Shown: piece by piece, positions 23,615-34,988 of the stretch | Position numbering within the stretch: the stretch's first letter is position 1 | How the letters are laid out: each line of letters opens with the position of its first letter | Source of the DNA: an uncultured Muribaculaceae bacterium | GTDB taxonomy: Bacteria > Bacillota_I > Bacilli_A > RF39 > UBA660 | Direction of reading: 5' to 3' | NCBI GenBank assembly: GCA_964457135.1 | Contig: CAYWED010000002.1 | Span: forward strand, 1-40,787 | Length of the DNA: 40,787 bases | Notes under the pieces: generated by a model | Seen by the model: the letters and a program-made list of their open reading frames with translations, nothing else | What the model was told of the DNA's origin: nothing | Databases searched by the model: none | Position numbers and translations under genes: made by a program

Positions 23615-23706
23615 AACTTTTCCTCCAAGAAAAATAATATCACAAAACACCTTTAACTAAAAGTAAAATTATGTTATTCTATATCTATAATAAAAGGGTG
23701 AGTAAA

Positions 23707-25458
23707 ATGTTCGGTAATATCATAAAAATAGATGGAAATTTAGTAGTAGTAAAAAATAATAATCAAGAAACTCATTCAGAACTCATGAATTGTCATGTGG
23801 TTTTTGAAGAAATAGATAGGAAAGTAATAGGCGAAATAACTAAAATAGGAAATAATGAAATAGAAATTCTTCTTGTAGGTGAAATACAAGATAATATTTT
23901 TTCTCCAGGTGTAGTAAAAAAGCCAGCGAGTAACACCTTAGCAAGAATAATAAATGCTAACGAATTAGAATTAATTATAGGAAAAAACGAAGTAAATAAA
24001 AACAACTTAATTATAGGTTCTTCTGCAATCTATAAGAGTTTTAATGTATCAATTCCACTAAATTCATTCTTTGCAAATCACAGTGCTATAATAGGTAATA
24101 CAGGTTCTGGTAAATCGTGTGGAGTTGCAAGACTATTACAAAATTTATTCCTAAAAAACAAAGAATTACCAATAAACTCACATATAGTCTTATTTGATGC
24201 TTACGGAGAATATACTAACACCTTTGACGAAATGAACAAAATACCTAATCTAGGATTTAAAAAATACACTACAAGAGTAACTAAACAAGATGAACAAATG
24301 TTAAAATTGCCAATTCATTTTCTAGGAGTAGATGACTTAGCAATCCTTCTTTCCGTGAGTGATGCAGATGTTATTCCTGTACTAGAAAAAACACTAAAAC
24401 TAGTTTACATATTCACAAGTCTTGATGAAAAAATTAAAGAATACAAAAATGATATAATAGCAAAATGTCTACTTGATATATTAAAAAGTGGAAAAAGTGG
24501 CTCACAAATGAGAGACCAAATAATAGCAGTTCTTTCAAAATATAATACCGAATCTTTAAATCTAGATTCAGTAATAATGCAACCAGGATACAATAGAACA
24601 CTAAAACAATGCTTAATAATTGATGAACAAGGAAAAATGAATGCAATACTTTTAGTAACAGAGTTTTTAAGTCAATTTGAAAGAGTAACACTAGATAATA
24701 TTGTAGTAGGGAAAGGTTTTATTTATACATTAAATGATTTATACTATGCCCTAGAATTTGCCCTTATAAGTGAAGGAACATTAAATAGTACTTTGTCTTA
24801 TAATAAAAATAACATTCTAAAAACAAGGTTGCAAACTATAATAAATAGTGAATATAGTAGTATCTTTGAAGTTAAAGAATATATAACAAAAGAAAAATAC
24901 ATAGAAAATTTATTCAAAAAAACAGATGGAACACTATGTCAATTAATTAACATTAACTTAAGCAATGTTGACGATAGATTTGCAAAAATATTGACAAAAC
25001 TTTATTCAAAATTATTCTTCACATACACTACAAAATTAAATCCTCGTGGTTCATTTAGTATTAACATAATCTTAGAAGAAGCCCATAGATATGTACAAAA
25101 TGACAATGATATAAACATAATAGGTTACAATATATTTGATAGAATTACCAAAGAGGGAAGAAAATATGGAACACTACTTACTTTCATAACACAAAGACCT
25201 AGTGAATTATCTTCTTCATCTCTAAGTCAATGTTCAAACTTTATAGTATTTAGAATATTCCATCCAAAAGATTTAGAAATAGTTAAAGGAATAAGCACAA
25301 ACCTTACGGAAGAAGGAGTAGAAAAATTAAAAACACTAAACCCTGGAACTGCAATTTGTTTTGGAACTGGTTTTAAAATTCCACTTATTGTCAAAATGGA
25401 ACTACCTGTACCTCTACCTGAAAGTACTAGTTTAAAAATAAATGGACTCTGGTACTAA
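23707..25458 (+). CDS. HerA/FtsK-type (DUF87) ATPase
   Basis: N-terminal HAS-barrel-like segment, Walker A GNTGSGKSCG, Walker B NIILEEAHRYV, then LLTFITQRPSELS. Confidence 0.75.
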   Translation: MFGNIIKIDGNLVVVKNNNQETHSELMNCHVVFEEIDRKVIGEITKIGNNEIEILLVGEIQDNIFSPGVVKKPASNTLARIINANELELIIGKNEVNKNNLIIGSSAIYKSFNVSIPLNSFFANHSAIIGNTGSGKSCGVARLLQNLFLKNKELPINSHIVLFDAYGEYTNTFDEMNKIPNLGFKKYTTRVTKQDEQMLKLPIHFLGVDDLAILLSVSDADVIPVLEKTLKLVYIFTSLDEKIKEYKNDIIAKCLLDILKSGKSGSQMRDQIIAVLSKYNTESLNLDSVIMQPGYNRTLKQCLIIDEQGKMNAILLVTEFLSQFERVTLDNIVVGKGFIYTLNDLYYALEFALISEGTLNSTLSYNKNNILKTRLQTIINSEYSSIFEVKEYITKEKYIENLFKKTDGTLCQLININLSNVDDRFAKILTKLYSKLFFTYTTKLNPRGSFSINIILEEAHRYVQNDNDINIIGYNIFDRITKEGRKYGTLLTFITQRPSELSSSSLSQCSNFIVFRIFHPKDLEIVKGISTNLTEEGVEKLKTLNPGTAICFGTGFKIPLIVKMELPVPLPESTSLKINGLWY

Positions 25459-28648: not shown

Positions 28649-29626
28649 ATGAGAAATAATTTAATAAGAACAGACGTATTAACTACAGTTAGTACAAATA
28701 ATTACTATAAAAAACCAGTAGAAGAAATAACTTCTAAAATATCAAATTCAAATAGAAAAAGAGTAATAGTCTCTGGAGTAAAAGGTGGAGGAAAATCAAC
28801 AGTACTATACCATCATAGAAATGCTTTACTATACACAGGACATGAAAATATAATTGGAACTTTTCATGATTCTATTCCATTTTTTGGAATTAATGAATTA
28901 TTTAGTGCACAATACTATGAATATTTTTATGAACTTGAAATGAGTTTAATGTTATTGTCACAAATAAAACTTTTTTATAGTAATATATTTAATCAAGAGT
29001 TTGCTAATCTTTATGAAGAAATTGAAGAAAGATTAAAAGAGTTAAAAATATACACAAGAATCTCTAATAAAGAACAAAAGAACTTAAAAGAATTTCTACC
29101 TTTTGGTAGTTTGACCGAGCCTATTATAAGAAAGTTTAAAAATGAAGCATCGCTTTTCACACTTTCTTTAGAAATAGACCAGTTTGAATATAACAGTTTA
29201 TATCACCAACTTAATTTAGTAAATTATAGTGAGTTATTTGACCAAATAATTTTAGCAGTCAACTCTTCATGTGTAACTCCAGATTTAAAAAATAAAGGTT
29301 ATGAAATTATAAATGTAGATTATGGAAAAAATTATGAAGTTTTAAGAGAAATTTTAAAACAAAAAATAATATCTTATAATGTATCTATAGCAAAGTCTGA
29401 AGAAACATTTCCTTTTAACTTAGTAACTGATAAACTAATCGAGTCTCTAGCACAAATATCTAACGGCAATATAAGTATAGTTTTAGATGCACTTTATCTA
29501 GTAAACGAAACACTTAGTGGTTCTAAAAATATGAATTTAGAAACTCTTATAACTTACTTACAAAGAGAAATAGCTCATAATGAAAAAATAGAAGAAATGT
29601 ACCCGACAAAAAAATTGCATTTATAA
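28649..29626 (+). CDS. P-loop NTPase, otherwise uncharacterised
   Basis: Walker A VSGVKGGGKSTVLY and a Walker B-like FTLSLEIDQF. GGGGGA RBS. Confidence 0.6.
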   Translation: MRNNLIRTDVLTTVSTNNYYKKPVEEITSKISNSNRKRVIVSGVKGGGKSTVLYHHRNALLYTGHENIIGTFHDSIPFFGINELFSAQYYEYFYELEMSLMLLSQIKLFYSNIFNQEFANLYEEIEERLKELKIYTRISNKEQKNLKEFLPFGSLTEPIIRKFKNEASLFTLSLEIDQFEYNSLYHQLNLVNYSELFDQIILAVNSSCVTPDLKNKGYEIINVDYGKNYEVLREILKQKIISYNVSIAKSEETFPFNLVTDKLIESLAQISNGNISIVLDALYLVNETLSGSKNMNLETLITYLQREIAHNEKIEEMYPTKKLHL

Positions 29627-29786: not shown

Positions 29787-30557
29787 ATGAATAAACTAAC
29801 TATAGAGAAAAAATATGATAAAGATAGAGACTATGTAAGAAGAATAATTTTTACAAGAGATGAAAATCAAAAATTTATTATTCATTTTGAAGGAAATTTA
29901 GACTTATATTTTACTTTAGAAAATTTTGGTAGTAATTCTTCTTTTATAATAGGAAAAGATAACTACAAAGTATGGTCGATATTTGATACTTTATACTATA
30001 ACATAATAAATGCAAGAGTTTATGAGCCAGTTGATGTAGATACAATTTTTGAAACCAAAATGAATGAGTTAGGCATAGATGAATTAGACTATCATTTATA
30101 TCCTGATTTTTATGAAAAAAGTATTTATGAAGCCCAAAGAATTGAATGTTTGAATTATGATTTAAAGAATCATGAAGAATATAAAGCATTAGTAAAAAAT
30201 GGTAAAATTATTTGGAAAAGTGATGATTATCCAAAAGAAATATCGCCTTATTTTACAATTGAACCCTTAGAAAATTCTTATCTAATCAGTTTTGGAGTAC
30301 CAAAGATACAAAGCTTTTTATCTTTAGAAGAAAAGATGATGATAGAAAATTTTAGAAACTTAGGTTTTATTAATGTAAGAATACGTAACAGTGGTTCAGC
30401 CTATGAGCCATTTAATATACTATTTATGAAAGCATTTAACTCTTTAATGGTAGAAGACGTAGATAATCTTTATCATCAAATCCATATTGAAGAATATTTA
30501 ATAGATAGACAACTTGAAAAAGGATATGATCTAGAGAAAATATTAAGAAAAAAGTAA
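29787..30557 (+). CDS. hypothetical protein
   Basis: 256-aa ORF with an AGGAAGG RBS. Confidence 0.55.
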   Translation: MNKLTIEKKYDKDRDYVRRIIFTRDENQKFIIHFEGNLDLYFTLENFGSNSSFIIGKDNYKVWSIFDTLYYNIINARVYEPVDVDTIFETKMNELGIDELDYHLYPDFYEKSIYEAQRIECLNYDLKNHEEYKALVKNGKIIWKSDDYPKEISPYFTIEPLENSYLISFGVPKIQSFLSLEEKMMIENFRNLGFINVRIRNSGSAYEPFNILFMKAFNSLMVEDVDNLYHQIHIEEYLIDRQLEKGYDLEKILRKK

Positions 30558-31281: not shown

Positions 31282-32662
31282 AAGTTTAACTATGCACATA
31301 TGGCTTTATCTAGCATCATTTCTAACCATCATACTTGCTTTTCTTTGGATATTGCAAGTCCTTTTTTTTGACACATACTATGAAAATAGAACAACAAAAT
31401 TAATAGAAAAAATTGCCATAAAAACAAAAATATATTATAAGAGTGAAAGAGACTCATCATATTATGATAGACTTTCATACGATAACAATGCCTGCATACA
31501 AATAATACAAAATACTGAAACCATATATTCATCAAATGGAACAAGAAGAGGCTGCCTTTATGATAATGATGAAAATGGAAAAATCACGACAAGTTACATA
31601 CTTGACTTTATAACTAGTGGTAAATCAAGACAAAATTACAAAATAGTAAACCCAGCACTCAATAACGATACATTAATAAGTGCATTAAAACTTGATGACA
31701 ACACATATAGTTTCATAAATGTTTCATTGGAACCTACTGACCCAGCAATCAAAATCATAAGAGACGAACTAGTATTTATAAGTATAGGAGTATATATTTC
31801 ATCATTCATACTTGCATATTTTATCAGTAGAAGAATATCTACTCCAATACTAAAAATAAATGCACGTGCTAAAAAAATGTCAAAAGGAGACCTTGACACA
31901 CCTTTTGAAACAAATGCAAATATAACTGAAATAAGAGAACTCGGAGAAACTCTAAATCAAACTAGAGAAGAATTATCTAAAATAAACGAAACAAGACGTG
32001 ATTTAATGGCAAATGTAAGTCATGACTTAAAAACACCTCTCACAATGATAAAAGCATATGCTGAAACTGCAAGAGACTTAAATAAAAATAATGAAGAAAA
32101 ACGAACAGATAATTTAAACATAATAATTGAAGAAGCAGAAAGATTAAATATACTAGTAAACGACATATTAGAGCTATCTAAAAGTGAAACAAATATGACA
32201 GAACTTTCAAAAGAAGACTTTAATTTAACTGAAGAAATAGAAACAATAATTCATAGATTTGATTATCTACGAGAAACAGAAGGCTATACATTTATATTCA
32301 AAAATAAAAAGCCAGTAATCATAAATGCAGATAGAAACAAAATTGGTCAAGTAATCTACAATTTAATAATAAATGCAATAAATTATACAGGGGACGATAA
32401 AAAAGTTATAGTTGACATTGAAACATTTAAAAAATATATAAGAGTATCTGTAACTGACACAGGAAAAGGAATAGAACCAGAAGAAATAGATATGATATGG
32501 GAAAAATACTACAAAAGTGAGAAAAAACATAGAAGAAATAAAATCGGAACAGGCTTAGGTTTATCTATTGTAAAAAGTATTTTAATAAATCATGGATTCA
32601 AATATGGAGTTACTAGTAAAAAAGGAAAAGGAACAAAATTCTATTTTGACATTAACATGTAA
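31271..32662 (+). CDS. sensor histidine kinase
   Basis: Two TM helices, a HAMP-like linker, H-box SHDLKTPLT, N-box and the G-box GTGLGLSIVKSIL. Overlaps the regulator gene. Confidence 0.85.
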   Translation: MKNRSLTMHIWLYLASFLTIILAFLWILQVLFFDTYYENRTTKLIEKIAIKTKIYYKSERDSSYYDRLSYDNNACIQIIQNTETIYSSNGTRRGCLYDNDENGKITTSYILDFITSGKSRQNYKIVNPALNNDTLISALKLDDNTYSFINVSLEPTDPAIKIIRDELVFISIGVYISSFILAYFISRRISTPILKINARAKKMSKGDLDTPFETNANITEIRELGETLNQTREELSKINETRRDLMANVSHDLKTPLTMIKAYAETARDLNKNNEEKRTDNLNIIIEEAERLNILVNDILELSKSETNMTELSKEDFNLTEEIETIIHRFDYLRETEGYTFIFKNKKPVIINADRNKIGQVIYNLIINAINYTGDDKKVIVDIETFKKYIRVSVTDTGKGIEPEEIDMIWEKYYKSEKKHRRNKIGTGLGLSIVKSILINHGFKYGVTSKKGKGTKFYFDINM

Positions 32663-32807
32663 ATCTCATACTTCTATCACAAAACTTTCACATTCATATA
32701 GTAAACTTAATATCACAAAGGAGATGATAGATGTTTAAGAGAAAAAGAATTATTATAAATATACAATCCTCTAAAAACCTATAAAATCACATAGATTAAA
32801 AACTGAA

Positions 32808-32842
32808 AAAGAGACACGTTATTTAAGATGTCTCTTTTGTTT
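32808..32842 (+). terminator. terminator closing the two-component operon region
   Basis: AAAGAGACA (32808-32816) pairs with TGTCTCTTT (32829-32837), followed by TGTTT. Confidence 0.55.
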
Positions 32843-32854
32843 AGAATAAAATAA

Positions 32855-32883
32855 TTTAAAATATAAACTATCCATGCTATAAT
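32855..32883 (+). promoter_or_regulatory. promoter of the retron ncRNA/RT transcript
   Basis: TTTAAA (32855-32860), 17-nt spacer, then TGcTATAAT extended -10 (32875-32883). Confidence 0.45.
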
Positions 32884-32888
32884 AACCT

Positions 32889-33060
32889 TGCAGTAGTGAT
32901 TGGAAATTTATTTCCTTTCTTTAACGAGTCGTTAAGGGACTAATTTAATTAAGATAATCAAAATAGTAATATTCCAAGGGACTTCCCTACACTTCATGTA
33001 GCCGCTACGCGTTGCTTCGCTAAAATCCATTTTCATATTACTCTTATCTTTAGTACTGCA
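32889..33060 (+). ncRNA. candidate retron msr-msd RNA
   Basis: It lies between the promoter and the RT. Flanking inverted repeats are TGCAGTA (32889-32895) and TACTGCA (33054-33060). Two 5' hairpins span 32902-32915 and 32918-32938. A long imperfect stem pairs 32951-32972 with 33035-33050 and encloses a locally GC-rich core. Confidence 0.5.
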
Positions 33061-33142
33061 CTTTTGGGGGTGGCAAAATTAATAAAATAAACTTTAATTT
33101 TGCTATCTCTAATTAAATATATAAAACCAAGGAGTAAATCAC

Positions 33143-34117
33143 ATGTGGAAATAAACAGGCACAAAAGAATGCAATGAATTTTTATTATCTCTAAGATTAT
33201 TAAATTGTAAAAATGAAAAGAAATACATAAAAACATTATATTCACTAAGTAACAATAAAGAAAATAATTACAAAATATACAAAATAAAAAAACATAATGG
33301 AAAATTAAGAACTATTTATGAACCAAATAAAATATTAAAACATGTCCAAAGACAAATCTTATCGAATATTCTAAACAATAAAAAAATATCCAAATATGCA
33401 AAAGCTTATCATAAAGGTGATTCACTAAAAGACAATGCCATTCCTCATGTCAATAAAGACATAATACTAAAATTAGATATTAAAGATTTTTTTGGAAACA
33501 TAAATTTTTATAATATATATAATGCCTGTTTTCCATTAGAGTACTTTCCTCCAAGCGTAGGAATGCTTTTAACTTACCTATGTACTTATAAAGATTTTCT
33601 TCCACAAGGGGCACCAACATCTTCTTATATTTCAAACTTAGTTATGAAAGACTTTGATGAAACTCTTGGTGCTTATTGTGAAGAAAACAAAATATCTTAC
33701 ACAAGATATGCAGATGACATGACTTTTTCAGGAAATTTTAATCCTAAAGAAATAATCATAAAAGTAAGAAAAATGCTTGCACCTCTAGGATTAGAACTAA
33801 ATAAAGATAAAATACATGTAATAAAAAAATCCAGAAGTCAAAATGTTACAGGCATAGTAGTTAATGAAAAAGCATAAACAAGTAGTAAATACCGTAAAAG
33901 TATAAGACAAGAAATATACTACATAAAAAAGTTTGGATTAACTTCACATCTAGAAAAGAAAAATATAAATATAGCTCCTAAAAAATACATTGCTCAGTTA
34001 TATGGAAAAGTATTATATGTTCTACAAATAGATGAAAAAAATAAAGAATTTCAAAATTATAAACAATTTTTACAATTGTTAAAAAACAACAAATCTAACC
34101 CTAATTTTAACGCGTAG
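33143..34117 (+). pseudogene. retron-type reverse transcriptase with two in-frame TAA codons
   Basis: A single frame of 325 codons with AAGGAG RBS (33129-33134) and ATG 33143. Motifs: NAIPH (33434-33448), LDIKDFF, QGAPTSS, YADD (33707-33718) and VTGIVVN. In-frame TAA at 33152-33154 and 33875-33877; terminal TAG at 34115-34117. Confidence 0.8.
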
Positions 34118-34136
34118 ATACTAACTTTTATCATAG

Positions 34137-34165
34137 TTGACAACAACCCTAAAATTTTGTAAAAT
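34137..34165 (+). promoter_or_regulatory. promoter of the membrane/AT-hook protein gene
   Basis: TTGACA (34137-34142), 17-nt spacer, TAAAAT (34160-34165). Confidence 0.5.
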
Positions 34166-34190
34166 TACTATTAGGATAGAGGTGGCTAAT

Positions 34191-34988
34191 GTGAAAAATA
34201 CTTTAAAAAGAATAGATTTGTGTTTAATAAACCAATTAATCTTATCAGTAATCGTGCTACTAATAGGTGTTGTAGTAACAATATTCAAATCATTTGGGTT
34301 AATTGATATAGTTTTATATATTTCATTATTATTTTATATTTACTCATTTTTTAGCATACTACTATATTTTATAAGAAGAAAAGAAGGAGATTACGAACTT
34401 TTACTATTATCATTAATTAATATAATAACAGCAACATTTATGTTTGTATTTAAAAAAGATAATCCTCCAATGATACTAGGTGCAGCAATGACTATTTATA
34501 CAATATTGTTAGTAATAAATAGGGGAGTAAAAATTTTAAAATTAAAAAGCGAAAACAATTTTATGTGGGTAGTAAAATTTTTAGTAACATTCTTAATTGC
34601 ATTTTTAGGAATGCTTACAACATATAATTTGTTTAACGAAGTTACAGTACAAACATTAATGTTTGGATTCTACTTTATGAGTTTAGGATTTATGACAACA
34701 ATAGAAAATCTAATTGAAATTTTTATAACTGATACAATATTTAAAAAAATACTATCAAAAATATTAGAAGATGAAAATGTAAAATTAGAAGAAATAATAG
34801 AAATAGTTGATTTAGATAGTACTAAATCAGAATCTAAACCAAAAACAGTAAAAGTAAAAAAAGAAGCGTCAACTGTTACTAAAAAAGCAGGTAGACCAAA
34901 AAAAGAAACTAAGACTAAAACAACAAAAAAAGAGGAAACCCCTACACCAAGAAGAGTAGGTAGACCTAGAAAATCAGATATAAGGTAA
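34191..34988 (+). CDS. six-TM membrane protein with a Lys-rich C-terminal tail carrying two AT-hook (GRP) motifs
   Basis: GTG 34191 lies 5 nt after AGAGGTGG. Six hydrophobic helices by eye. The tail reads ...KKAGRPKKETKTKTTKKEETPTPRRVGRPRKSDIR, with GRP at 34890-34898 and 34959-34967. Confidence 0.65.
   Translation: MKNTLKRIDLCLINQLILSVIVLLIGVVVTIFKSFGLIDIVLYISLLFYIYSFFSILLYFIRRKEGDYELLLLSLINIITATFMFVFKKDNPPMILGAAMTIYTILLVINRGVKILKLKSENNFMWVVKFLVTFLIAFLGMLTTYNLFNEVTVQTLMFGFYFMSLGFMTTIENLIEIFITDTIFKKILSKILEDENVKLEEIIEIVDLDSTKSESKPKTVKVKKEASTVTKKAGRPKKETKTKTTKKEETPTPRRVGRPRKSDIR

What the first reader, a model, noticed from the sequence alone, without database searches (positions are those of the whole stretch)
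32855..33103. Structured msr-msd-like ncRNA with its own extended -10 promoter upstream of the RT
Seen in the sequence:
- TGcTATAAT at 32875-32883.
- Inverted repeats TGCAGTA (32889-32895) and TACTGCA (33054-33060), with three further pairs after one mismatch. They sit like retron a1/a2.
- Guanosines right after a1 (32896, 32898) are candidate branching G residues.
- Hairpin GGAAA/TTTCC at 32902-32915.
- Hairpin TTAACG-agt-CGTTAA, extended by C-G and G-U pairs, at 32918-32938.
- A long imperfect stem pairing AAGATAA..AGTAATAT (32951-32972) with ATATTACT.TTATCTT (33035-33050). It encloses a locally GC-rich core, GTAGCCGCTACGCGTTGCTTCGC, that includes a CTACA/TGTAG hairpin (32987-33001).
- An 8-nt direct repeat AAGGGACT at 32934-32941 and 32976-32983.
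- A perfect 10-bp hairpin GCAAAATTAA/TTAATTTTGC (33073-33103) between a2 and the RT RBS.

Inference: msr is roughly 32889-32945, and msd is templated from about 33053 back to about 32946.
Basis: partly seen in the sequence, partly recalled or inferred. Interest (0 to 1): 0.65.

Follow-up and report, generated by a model that had tools for sequence, protein, structure and literature searches.

The report
Retron RNA gene beside dead RT
This stretch is the template-RNA gene (msr-msd) of a known effector-less "Ec107-like" retron that is common in gut Bacilli. In this genome the reverse transcriptase next to it carries two premature stop codons, so it is an ordinary, decaying copy.

Summary
The RNA folds better than all 200 shuffles (z -4.4).

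Sixty-three related loci from gut Bacilli and "Tenericutes" MAGs carry an RT 51-75% identical to this one. Wherever upstream DNA is present, the same about 175-nt element sits just upstream of the RT, behind a -10 box.

Of 43 proposed base pairs, 22 show compensatory double changes, against 7.2±1.7 in shuffles and 5-9 in slid controls. A covariance model built without the window hits 32885-33062 at 149 bits (E 2e-30).

The RT matches PADLOC RT_Ec107-like (4e-128). No neighbouring gene recurs across loci, as published for the stand-alone clade-2 Ec107-like retrons.

Three caveats:
- The window's RT has in-frame TAA codons at codon 4 (Tyr in relatives) and codon 245 (Gln). TAA is this genome's normal stop codon.
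- The hairpin at 33073-33103 lies in a 64-nt insertion found in no relative.
- The three extra a1/a2 pairs show no covariation.

Verdict: a correct call, a degenerate new member of a known kind, of modest interest.

The parts
32807..32838 (+). Terminator-like hairpin that ends the upstream histidine-kinase operon (10-bp stem running into a T-run). It marks the retron as a separate transcription unit. This is context, not part of the retron.
   Evidence: Sequence. Fold of 32800-32848 gives -12.5 kcal/mol, z -3.56. The kinase ORF ends at 32662.
32855..32883 (+). Promoter: -35-like TTTAAA (32855-60), 17-nt spacer, extended -10 TGcTATAAT (32875-83). The predicted transcription start falls at about the first bases of a1.
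   Evidence: Promoter scan gives 10 of 12 matches with a TG. A -10 hexamer is present in 59 of 59 family upstream regions, TGN in 49, and the modal distance to a1 is 5 nt. Alignment.
32889..32895 (+). a1, the 5' arm of the closing inverted repeat (TGCAGTA).
   Evidence: Pairs with 33054-33060. Helix 1 is 97.6% paired, and 6 of 7 pairs have changes on both sides, for example A-U to G-C in 8 sequences.
32896..32896 (+). Candidate priming (branching) guanosine. It lies immediately 3' of the a1/a2 duplex, opposite the invariant G at 33053.
   Evidence: G in at least 90% of the 48 aligned sequences; L016 has A. G32898 is equally conserved, so the choice rests on position only. This is inference.
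32902..32915 (+). msr hairpin 1 (GGAAA/TTTCC).
   Evidence: All 3 tested pairs of helix 2 have changes on both sides, 95.7% paired.
32919..32937 (+). msr hairpin 2 (CTTTAACG-AGT-CGTTAAGG). Its sequence is almost invariant across the family, so it is a likely RT recognition element (inference).
   Evidence: Helix 3 has 8 pairs, 100% paired. Five never vary and two have double changes. Invariant columns are listed.
32952..33049 (+). msd, a long imperfect stem-loop. The lower arms are 32952-57 with 33044-49, and the upper arms are 32965-72 with 33035-42. It is the presumed template for an msDNA of roughly 100-110 nt.
   Evidence: RNAfold. Upper stem helix 5 is 93.8% paired with 3 double-change pairs. 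The lower stem covaries in relatives, U-A to C-G at one pair in 11 sequences. In the window the lower stem pairs in a shifted register.
32979..33028 (+). Inner msd helix GG..AC (32979-82) with GUCC-type partner (33025-28). It encloses the apical hairpin CTACA/TGTAG (32987-33001) and a GC-richer segment (33002-33024) whose length varies between relatives.
   Evidence: Helix 6 has 3 of 4 pairs with double changes. Helix 7 has 3 of 6 and is 98.6% paired. The window breaks one pair, C32982 with A33025. The 33002-33024 segment is shortened or absent in some relatives.
33054..33060 (+). a2, the 3' arm of the closing inverted repeat (TACTGCA).
33066..33142 (+). Window-specific junction. It holds a degenerate remnant of the ancestral Shine-Dalgarno and spacer (GGGGGTGGCAAAA, 33066-78). 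It also carries a new RBS, AAGGAG (33129-34).
   Evidence: Relatives run a2, then 0-10 nt, then GGAGGTAGTAAAA-ATG. Hairpin energy is -18.9 kcal/mol, z -8.65. There is no U-tract and no terminator call. No other copy of the insert exists in the window or the loci.
33143..34117 (+). Retron reverse transcriptase pseudogene of 324 codons. It has in-frame TAA codons at 33152-54 (codon 4) and 33875-77 (codon 245), and its stop is TAG at 34115-17. It retains the NAxxH (DNAIPH), YADD and VTG motifs.
   Evidence: Translation. Relatives have Tyr and Gln at the two positions. PADLOC RT_Ec107-like 4.4e-128, Pfam RVT_1, Ec86 RT 7.5e-36. An independent Logan contig at depth 26 is identical. TAA ends 26 of 34 window ORFs.

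Best explanation
Positions 32875-33060 are the promoter and msr-msd non-coding RNA gene of a stand-alone retron, meaning ncRNA plus RT with no effector. It belongs to the clade-2 "Ec107-like" lineage that is widespread in host-associated Bacillota.

How an intact family member is inferred to work:
1. An extended -10 promoter starts transcription at about a1.
2. a1 (32889-95) and a2 (33054-60) pair and close the RNA.
3. Two msr hairpins, the second almost invariant in sequence, position the RT. The RT is translated from the same transcript, just 3' of a2.
4. The RT primes from the 2'-OH of the G that follows a1 (32896 is the best candidate).
5. It copies the long msd stem-loop back towards about 32946, giving a branched msDNA of roughly 100-110 nt.

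What is shown here: the conserved sequence, the covarying structure, the promoter, and the invariable position next to a retron RT. What is inferred from established retron biology: priming, the template limits and msDNA synthesis.

In this genome the RT is inactivated by two nonsense codons. It is also separated from the ncRNA by a 64-nt insertion that locks the old ribosome-binding site into a 17-bp hairpin. The ncRNA may still be transcribed, but no msDNA should be made from this locus unless an RT acts in trans. This is a recently decayed copy.
For: - Fold: z -4.37.
- RT identity: PADLOC RT_Ec107-like 4.4e-128, next best RT_III-A 3.9e-106. Below-cutoff matches to retron St85 and Ec67 NCBIfam models. 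Ec86 RT is the best solved relative. NAxxH, YADD and VTG motifs are present.
- Relatives: 63 related loci. The ncRNA model finds 61 full copies plus one cut off at a contig end, each directly 5' of the RT on the same strand, and only one in the window.
- Covariation: 22 of 43 pairs with double changes against 7.2±1.7 in shuffles (0 of 500) and 5-9 when slid. RNAalifold finds 19 of 35 compensatory.
- Promoter is conserved.
- Neighbouring genes are unrelated between loci: GNAT, NUDIX, dehydrogenase, ATPase and others. The window has no PRTase or other retron effector.
- Literature agrees. [quoted passage not shown] In the SPIRE survey, clade2_Ec107like is 93% Bacillota, host-associated and without recurrent accessory modules, and the Ec107_like covariance model is among the most often detected (bioRxiv 10.64898/2026.05.14.725207). 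Clade 2 retrons are among the highest RT-DNA producers when expressed (bioRxiv 10.1101/2024.01.25.577267).
- Pseudogene: Tyr4 to TAA and Gln245 to TAA. TAA is the normal stop codon and the window holds no suppressor tRNA. An independent assembly is identical. A 98%-identical relative in another sample shows no listed difference at codon 4. No start codon follows the first stop until 33563.
Against: - There is no transcript, 5'-end or msDNA data for this organism. The only RNA evidence is a low-depth metatranscriptome contig from a relative that spans a2 into the RT, and it could be DNA carry-over.
- Assembled contigs hide minority variants, so an intact RT allele could coexist in the population.
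- The Ec107-like assignment rests on a PADLOC profile name and on the published description. The E. coli Ec107 sequence and the Mestre Ec107_like model were not compared directly.
- The window's ncRNA is nearly intact (149 bits, the same as subfamily members with intact RTs). That fits recent decay, but it also fits continued use.
- The predicted msDNA hairpin is only weakly stable as DNA (z -1.5).
Confidence: 0.9

Rival explanations
1. The retron is fully functional here. The two TAA codons would be assembly or sequencing errors, minority alleles, or read through, so the RT is made and msDNA is produced.
For: The ORF is otherwise open for 324 codons in a genome of 26% GC. The catalytic motifs are intact. 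The ncRNA and promoter are intact. Both stops share the context TAA-ACA.
Against: - The two changes are independent substitutions, not homopolymer indels.
- A Logan contig at depth 26 is identical across 32600-34200. A second sample has an identical fragment covering the second stop.
- A 98% relative shows no listed difference at codon 4.
- TAA terminates 26 of 34 ORFs and the window holds no suppressor tRNA.
- No start codon allows re-initiation before 33563.
- The window RT has 6 private changes at otherwise invariant positions, against 3 or fewer in 60 relatives.
Confidence: 0.05
2. The ncRNA is kept for its own sake. Either a second intact RT of the same family elsewhere in the genome uses it in trans, or it has an RT-independent role as a structured small RNA.
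For: The ncRNA scores as well as those of subfamily members with intact RTs, and its promoter is a perfect extended -10. One MAG holds two RT copies that are 92% identical (L027 and L042), so multi-copy genomes may exist.
Against: The ORF is otherwise uninterrupted, which points to recent inactivation, so lack of decay in 175 nt is expected by time alone. One inner msd pair is already broken (C32982 with A33025). No second copy exists in the 40.8-kb window. Nothing is known of the rest of the genome.
Confidence: 0.08
3. The region is only a structured 5' leader or cis-regulator of RT translation, not a reverse-transcription template.
For: It lies in the 5' UTR of the RT, and covariation alone does not say what a structure does.
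Against: The architecture is that of msr-msd: a terminal inverted repeat, a conserved G right after a1, two msr hairpins and a long msd stem whose apex varies in length. It sits next to an RT that matches retron profiles and carries the retron-specific NAxxH and VTG motifs. Published covariance models treat this class as retron ncRNA, and clade 2 retrons make RT-DNA (papers cited above).
Confidence: 0.02
4. The inverted repeats are chance features of AT-rich intergenic DNA.
For: At 26% GC, short inverted repeats are frequent. The promoter scan finds 22 sites against 14.4 expected.
Against: No shuffle of 200 folds as well. The covariance model gives E 1.7e-30. 22 pairs are compensatory against 7 expected.
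Confidence: 0.005

Closest known systems
Clade-2 "Ec107-like" stand-alone retrons (Retron-Eco5/Ec107 branch of Mestre et al. 2020; clade2_Ec107like of the 2026 SPIRE survey)
   Same: - The RT's best profile match is PADLOC RT_Ec107-like.
- The cassette is msr-msd plus RT with no recurrent accessory gene.
- Hosts are gut and host-associated Bacillota, as reported in 10.64898/2026.05.14.725207.
- The predicted msDNA length of about 100-110 nt resembles the 107 nt of Ec107. That figure comes from my own knowledge of the name and was not tested.
   Different: This copy has a nonsense-inactivated RT and a 64-nt hairpin-forming insertion between a2 and the start codon. The E. coli Ec107 sequence and the published Ec107_like covariance model were not compared directly.
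Type III-A retrons (PRTase-like effector with or without a winged-helix protein, e.g. Retron-Eco11)
   Same: Second-best RT profile family, RT_III-A at 3.9e-106. According to PMC7736814, the Ec107 branch shares a node with PRTase-linked RTs.
   Different: There is no PRTase-like or wHTH gene next to the RT in the window or in relatives.
Retron-Eco1 (Ec86), the structurally solved reference retron
   Same: Best solved RT relative, 7.5e-36 over residues 28-270. It shares the same ncRNA logic: a1/a2 closure, a priming G after a1, msr hairpins and an msd stem.
   Different: Ec86 is a type II-A retron with an NDT effector. Its RT is a distant relative, not a family member, and the ncRNA sequences are unrelated. 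No Rfam family matches here.

Membership tests
Retron (msr-msd ncRNA + RT) | RT of the retron lineage with the NAxxH and VTG signature motifs and a YxDD catalytic site | tested here: met
   PADLOC retron RT profiles from 4.4e-128. Retron RTs fill the solved-structure hit list. DNAIPH, YADD and NVTGIVVN are read.
Retron (msr-msd ncRNA + RT) | ncRNA directly upstream on the same strand, closed by terminal inverted repeats a1/a2 | tested here: met
   7-bp a1/a2. 97.6% paired, 6 of 7 pairs with compensatory changes. The position is conserved in 61 loci.
Retron (msr-msd ncRNA + RT) | One to three msr hairpins plus one long msd stem-loop | tested here: met
   Two msr hairpins and a composite msd stem, all with covariation.
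Retron (msr-msd ncRNA + RT) | Conserved priming guanosine at the 3' end of a1 | tested here: inconclusive
   G32896 and G32898 are each conserved in at least 90% of sequences. Which one, if either, forms the 2'-5' branch cannot be told from sequence.
Retron (msr-msd ncRNA + RT) | Production of branched msDNA | not testable with these tools
   Only assembled contigs and one low-depth metatranscriptome contig of a relative were available.
Retron (msr-msd ncRNA + RT) | Intact, translatable RT gene (needed for a working member) | tested here: not met
   In-frame TAA at 33152-54 and 33875-77. By descent the locus is a retron, but it is a pseudogenised one.
Clade-2 Ec107-like stand-alone retrons | RT groups with the Ec107 branch | tested here: met
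   Best PADLOC profile is RT_Ec107-like, 424.9 bits, covering profile positions 2-305 of 307. No tree was built.
Clade-2 Ec107-like stand-alone retrons | No recurrent accessory or effector gene beside the cassette | tested here: met
   ORF clustering over the 63 loci: the largest non-RT clusters have 9 members, and only one of them (c2) sits next to the RT repeatedly. Immediate neighbours belong to unrelated Pfam families.
Clade-2 Ec107-like stand-alone retrons | ncRNA matches the published Ec107_like covariance model | not tested
   That model is not in Rfam (no hit) and was not available. My own model R1 was used in its place.
Type III-A retron | Adjacent PRTase-like effector, with or without a winged-helix partner | tested here: not met
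   No such family among the window ORFs or the neighbours of relatives.
Intrinsic terminator (for the hairpin at 33066-33110) | Stable GC-containing stem followed directly by a U-tract | tested here: not met
   The stem is stable (-18.9 kcal/mol), but it is followed by AAUUAAAUAU and the scan makes no terminator call.

The most novel reading that the evidence does not exclude
This is an orphan retron ncRNA that outlives its RT. It keeps a perfect promoter and a nearly intact structure because it still works, either with an RT supplied in trans or as a structured RNA in its own right. That would bear on the open question of what effector-less Ec107-like retrons of gut Bacillota do. The 64-nt insertion, whose 3' arm looks like an inverted copy of the RBS region, would then be a device that uncouples RNA production from RT translation, not debris.
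Probability: 0.07. Interest if true: 0.6.

Novelty: new member of a known kind. Interest (0 to 1): 0.3.

Why it matters
The result confirms that a tool-free reader can recognise a retron ncRNA from sequence alone. It also supplies a well-supported consensus structure for the Bacillota branch of the Ec107-like stand-alone retrons: 48 sequences and 22 covarying pairs.

That lineage is abundant in gut metagenomes, yet its function without an effector is still unknown (PMC7736814). The family alignment and model could guide the choice of compact retrons (about 1.25 kb, promoter to terminator) for RT-DNA production.

The copy in this window adds little. It shows that such cassettes decay by nonsense mutation and by insertion at the ncRNA-RT junction.

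Tried and rejected
- **Rfam.** Neither the gathering threshold nor E up to 10 gave a relevant family. The hits were three tRNAs and chance snoRNA or plastid matches.
- **Synteny.** Window neighbours (two-component system, TM protein, SpoVS, TK) are not next to the RT in relatives, so no conserved operon exists.
- **Hidden effector.** I scanned the ORFs immediately upstream and downstream in relatives. They are heterogeneous (GNAT, NUDIX, P-loop kinase-like, 3-hydroxyacyl-CoA dehydrogenase). An AAA_15/AAA_21 ATPase recurs in only 9 loci.
- **Window ATPase.** The window ATPase at 28649-29626 shows no similarity to the ORF upstream in L054.
- **Phage carriage.** IMG/VR has no close relative, best 35% identity.
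- **Origin of the 64-nt insert.** No other copy exists in the window or the loci.
- **TAA recoding or a suppressor tRNA.** Rejected.
- **L013.** An apparent duplication of the RT 5' end turned out to be a scaffold gap of Ns.
- **Narrow read-laying windows (161 nt).** These laid almost nothing.
- **Supplements of PMC7736814.** Not held, so listing of this family there could not be checked.
- **Alternative pairing of the msr copy of AAGGGACT.** By eye on the alignment, the msr copy does not change when the GUCC partner changes, so I dropped the idea.

Full report
**Observation**

These are the extended -10 TGcTATAAT (32875-83), TGCAGTA/TACTGCA (32889-95 and 33054-60), and the G residues at 32896 and 32898. 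They also include the two small hairpins, the long imperfect stem (32952-72 with 33035-49), the CTACA/TGTAG hairpin, the AAGGGACT direct repeat, and the GCAAAATTAA/TTAATTTTGC hairpin.

RNAfold of 32885-33110 returns exactly the proposed architecture. The MFE is -56.5 kcal/mol, z is -4.37, and none of 200 dinucleotide shuffles folds as well. The ncRNA alone (32889-33060) gives -37.4 kcal/mol, z -2.85. A terminator-like hairpin at 32807-32838 closes the upstream histidine-kinase operon, so the element has its own transcription unit.

**The gene next door**

The frame that opens at ATG 33143, after RBS AAGGAG at 33129-34, encodes a 324-codon reverse transcriptase.
- Pfam RVT_1: 9.5e-23.
- PADLOC RT_Ec107-like: 4.4e-128 over the whole profile, followed by RT_III-A at 3.9e-106.
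- NCBIfam retron St85 and Ec67 models match below their cut-offs.
- The best solved relative is the Ec86 retron RT, 7.5e-36.
- The retron signatures NAxxH (DNAIPH), YADD and VTG are present.

The frame is interrupted twice by TAA, at 33152-54 (codon 4) and 33875-77 (codon 245). All aligned relatives have Tyr and Gln at these positions, so each stop is a single-base substitution. The evidence that these are genuine stops:
- TAA ends 26 of 34 ORFs in the window, and the three tRNAs in the window are ordinary, so there is no recoding.
- No start codon follows the first stop until 33563.
- An independently assembled public contig (run X1, depth 26) is identical over 32600-34200.
- A second sample holds an identical fragment across the second stop.
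- A 98%-identical relative in a third sample shows no listed difference at codon 4.

The RT is therefore a pseudogene. It is a young one, because the frame is otherwise open in DNA of 26% GC.

**Relatives**

A protein search found thousands of RTs. The best are 72-76% identical, 315-323 aa long, intact, and mostly unnamed or labelled "Bacilli bacterium".

A scan of one genome per species returned 63 loci. They come from gut MAGs of uncultured Bacilli, "Tenericutes" and Erysipelotrichaceae, from Clostridium sp. CAG:302 and from Candidatus Fimihabitans. Hosts include rabbit, ruminants, chicken, mouse and human.

The roughly 200 nt upstream of the RT start align well in every locus that has upstream sequence. 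Conservation begins at the -35/-10 region and not before. The -10 hexamer is found in 59 of 59 regions: 47 are exact TATAAT, 49 have the TGN extension, and in 45 it lies 5 nt before a1.

**Structure test**

On a MAFFT alignment of 48 non-identical sequences (A2), RNAalifold predicts a1/a2, both msr hairpins, the msd stem and the apical hairpin. Compensatory changes occur in 19 of 35 pairs.

I then tested a hand-drawn structure of 43 pairs.

| Measure | Observed | Control |
|---|---|---|
| Cells paired | 95.3% | 32-45% when 3' partners are slid 1-3 columns |
| Pairs changed on both sides | 22 | 7.2±1.7 in column shuffles (0 of 500 reach 22); 5-9 when slid |

Every helix contains double changes: a1/a2 in 6 of 7 pairs, msr hairpin 1 in 3 of 3, msr hairpin 2 in 2 of 8 (the rest are invariant), lower msd stem in 2, upper msd stem in 3, inner GG..AC/GUCC helix in 3 of 4, and the apical hairpin in 3 of 6.

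They pair in 83% of cells against 82% in shuffles, and no covariation measure exceeds the shuffles. They also compete with the covarying lower msd stem.

**Membership of the window copy**

I built covariance model R1 from 47 relatives, leaving the window out.
- It matches window 32885-33062 end to end at 149.3 bits, E 1.7e-30. This is the only real hit in the window.
- Across all loci it finds 61 full copies plus one cut off at a contig end, each directly upstream of the RT. It finds none in the ten distant viral loci.
- The window's score is at the low end but equals that of a subfamily with intact RTs (L030, L031, L044, L047).
- Only one inner msd pair is broken in the window (C32982 with A33025).

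**What is specific to the window**

In relatives, a2 is followed within 0-10 nt by GGAGGTAGTAAAA-ATG. The window keeps a degenerate remnant, GGGGGTGGCAAAA (33066-78). It then has 64 extra bases (33079-33142) with a new RBS.

The remnant and the insert form a 17-bp hairpin at 33066-33110 (-18.9 kcal/mol, z -8.65). The reverse complement of its 3' arm, AGAGATAGCAAAATTAA, resembles the RBS region, which suggests an inverted duplication. There is no U-tract and no terminator call. No other copy of the insert exists.

**System type**

Genes next to the cassette differ from locus to locus. They include GNAT, NUDIX, P-loop kinase-like, 3-hydroxyacyl-CoA dehydrogenase and unknowns. An AAA_15/AAA_21 ATPase lies upstream in 9 loci.

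The window is a housekeeping region (tRNA ligases, ThyA, DHFR, ScpAB, TK, SpoVS). It has no PRTase or other retron effector. IMG/VR holds no close relative.

This matches the published description:
- A 2026 survey of SPIRE genomes finds clade2_Ec107like to be 93% Bacillota, host-associated and without recurrent accessory modules. It names the Ec107_like covariance model among the most frequently detected (bioRxiv 10.64898/2026.05.14.725207).
- Clade 2 retrons are among the best RT-DNA producers when expressed in E. coli (bioRxiv 10.1101/2024.01.25.577267).

**Mechanism**

Shown here: a conserved promoter, a conserved and covarying RNA structure, and an invariable position 5' of a retron RT.

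Inferred from established retron biology: transcription from about 32889, closure by a1/a2, and RT binding to the msr hairpins. Hairpin 2 is conserved in sequence as well as in structure. Priming would come from the 2'-OH of the G after a1. G32896 is favoured by position, but G32898 is equally conserved. Reverse transcription of the msd stem back to about 32946 would yield an msDNA of roughly 100-110 nt.

In this genome the chain is broken at the RT. Decay is not unique to this copy: the RTs in L049 and L057, and apparently L058 near its contig end, are also interrupted.

**Verdict**

The element is a degenerate new member of a known family. Interest is modest. The open question is the function of effector-less Ec107-like retrons, and it belongs to the family, not to this copy.

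Noticed in passing
window 33143-34117: The retron RT is a pseudogene. Single-base nonsense changes give Tyr4 to TAA (33152-54) and Gln245 to TAA (33875-77), both in the context TAA-ACA. The frame is otherwise open, and the catalytic box is YADD where all relatives have YSDD.
   Followed up: yes
window 33066-33142: A 64-nt insertion lies exactly between the ancestral RBS/spacer and the ATG. It forms a 17-bp hairpin with the RBS remnant, and its 3' arm looks like an inverted copy of that RBS region. Its origin is unknown and no other copy was found.
   Followed up: partly
window 29787-30557; L054 4955-5587: An ORF of unknown function (256 aa, no Pfam, PADLOC or NCBIfam hit) lies 2.3 kb upstream of the window's retron. 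It has a 26%-identical homologue (E 7e-17) immediately upstream of the retron in L054, and in no other locus. This may be coincidence or an occasional partner.
   Followed up: partly
L014, L015, L017, L018, L021, L022, L061, L062 (about -1080 to -210 relative to the RT start): A 288-302 aa AAA_15/AAA_21 (AbiEii/OLD-type) ATPase ends right at the retron promoter, on the same strand, in one subclade of loci. In L062 it is split into two ORFs. It resembles the ATPase partners of type I retrons, but it is absent from the other loci.
   Followed up: partly
L027 6001-6858 and L042 1-822 (same MAG, RUG13428): Two RT copies that are 92% identical at the DNA level sit at contig ends of one MAG. This could be two paralogous retrons per genome, or a mixture of strains.
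   Followed up: partly
run X3, contig laid on window 33143-33570: A 98%-identical RT from another sample of the same study has a different sequence upstream of the ATG (...TTATAGGAGATGGTAAAAAA). It lacks the window's insertion, and no a2 motif is visible in the 30 bases shown. No difference from the window is listed at codon 4.
   Followed up: partly
window 23671-25458: A 595-aa HerA-like ATPase (Pfam DUF87, 2.7e-17). One window ORF, most likely this one, also matches PADLOC HerA at 6.6e-105. It could be part of a defence system or a housekeeping gene. Its neighbours were not examined.
   Followed up: no
window 34137-34988: Downstream of the RT lies an ORF for a 283-aa, apparently multi-pass membrane protein. 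By eye its tail is lysine-rich with AT-hook-like GRPKK and GRPRK motifs, and it has a near-consensus promoter (TTGACA-17-TAAAAT at 34137-65). It has no family hit and is not found next to the retron in relatives.
   Followed up: partly
window 32934-41 and 32976-83 (family-wide): The AAGGGACT direct repeat is conserved across the family (AAGGGACU after msr hairpin 2; AAAGGACU or AAUGGACU in the msd). Only the msd copy covaries with the GUCC partner. The role of the msr copy is unexplained.
   Followed up: partly
L002/L003/L005/L006/L008, about 60 nt after the RT stop: Homology between cassettes in different genomic contexts starts at the -35 region and ends about 60 nt after the RT stop, in a GAAAAAA...TTTTTTC inverted repeat. 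The shared unit is therefore a compact module of about 1.25 kb. How it moves between sites is unknown, and no flanking repeats were searched for.
   Followed up: partly
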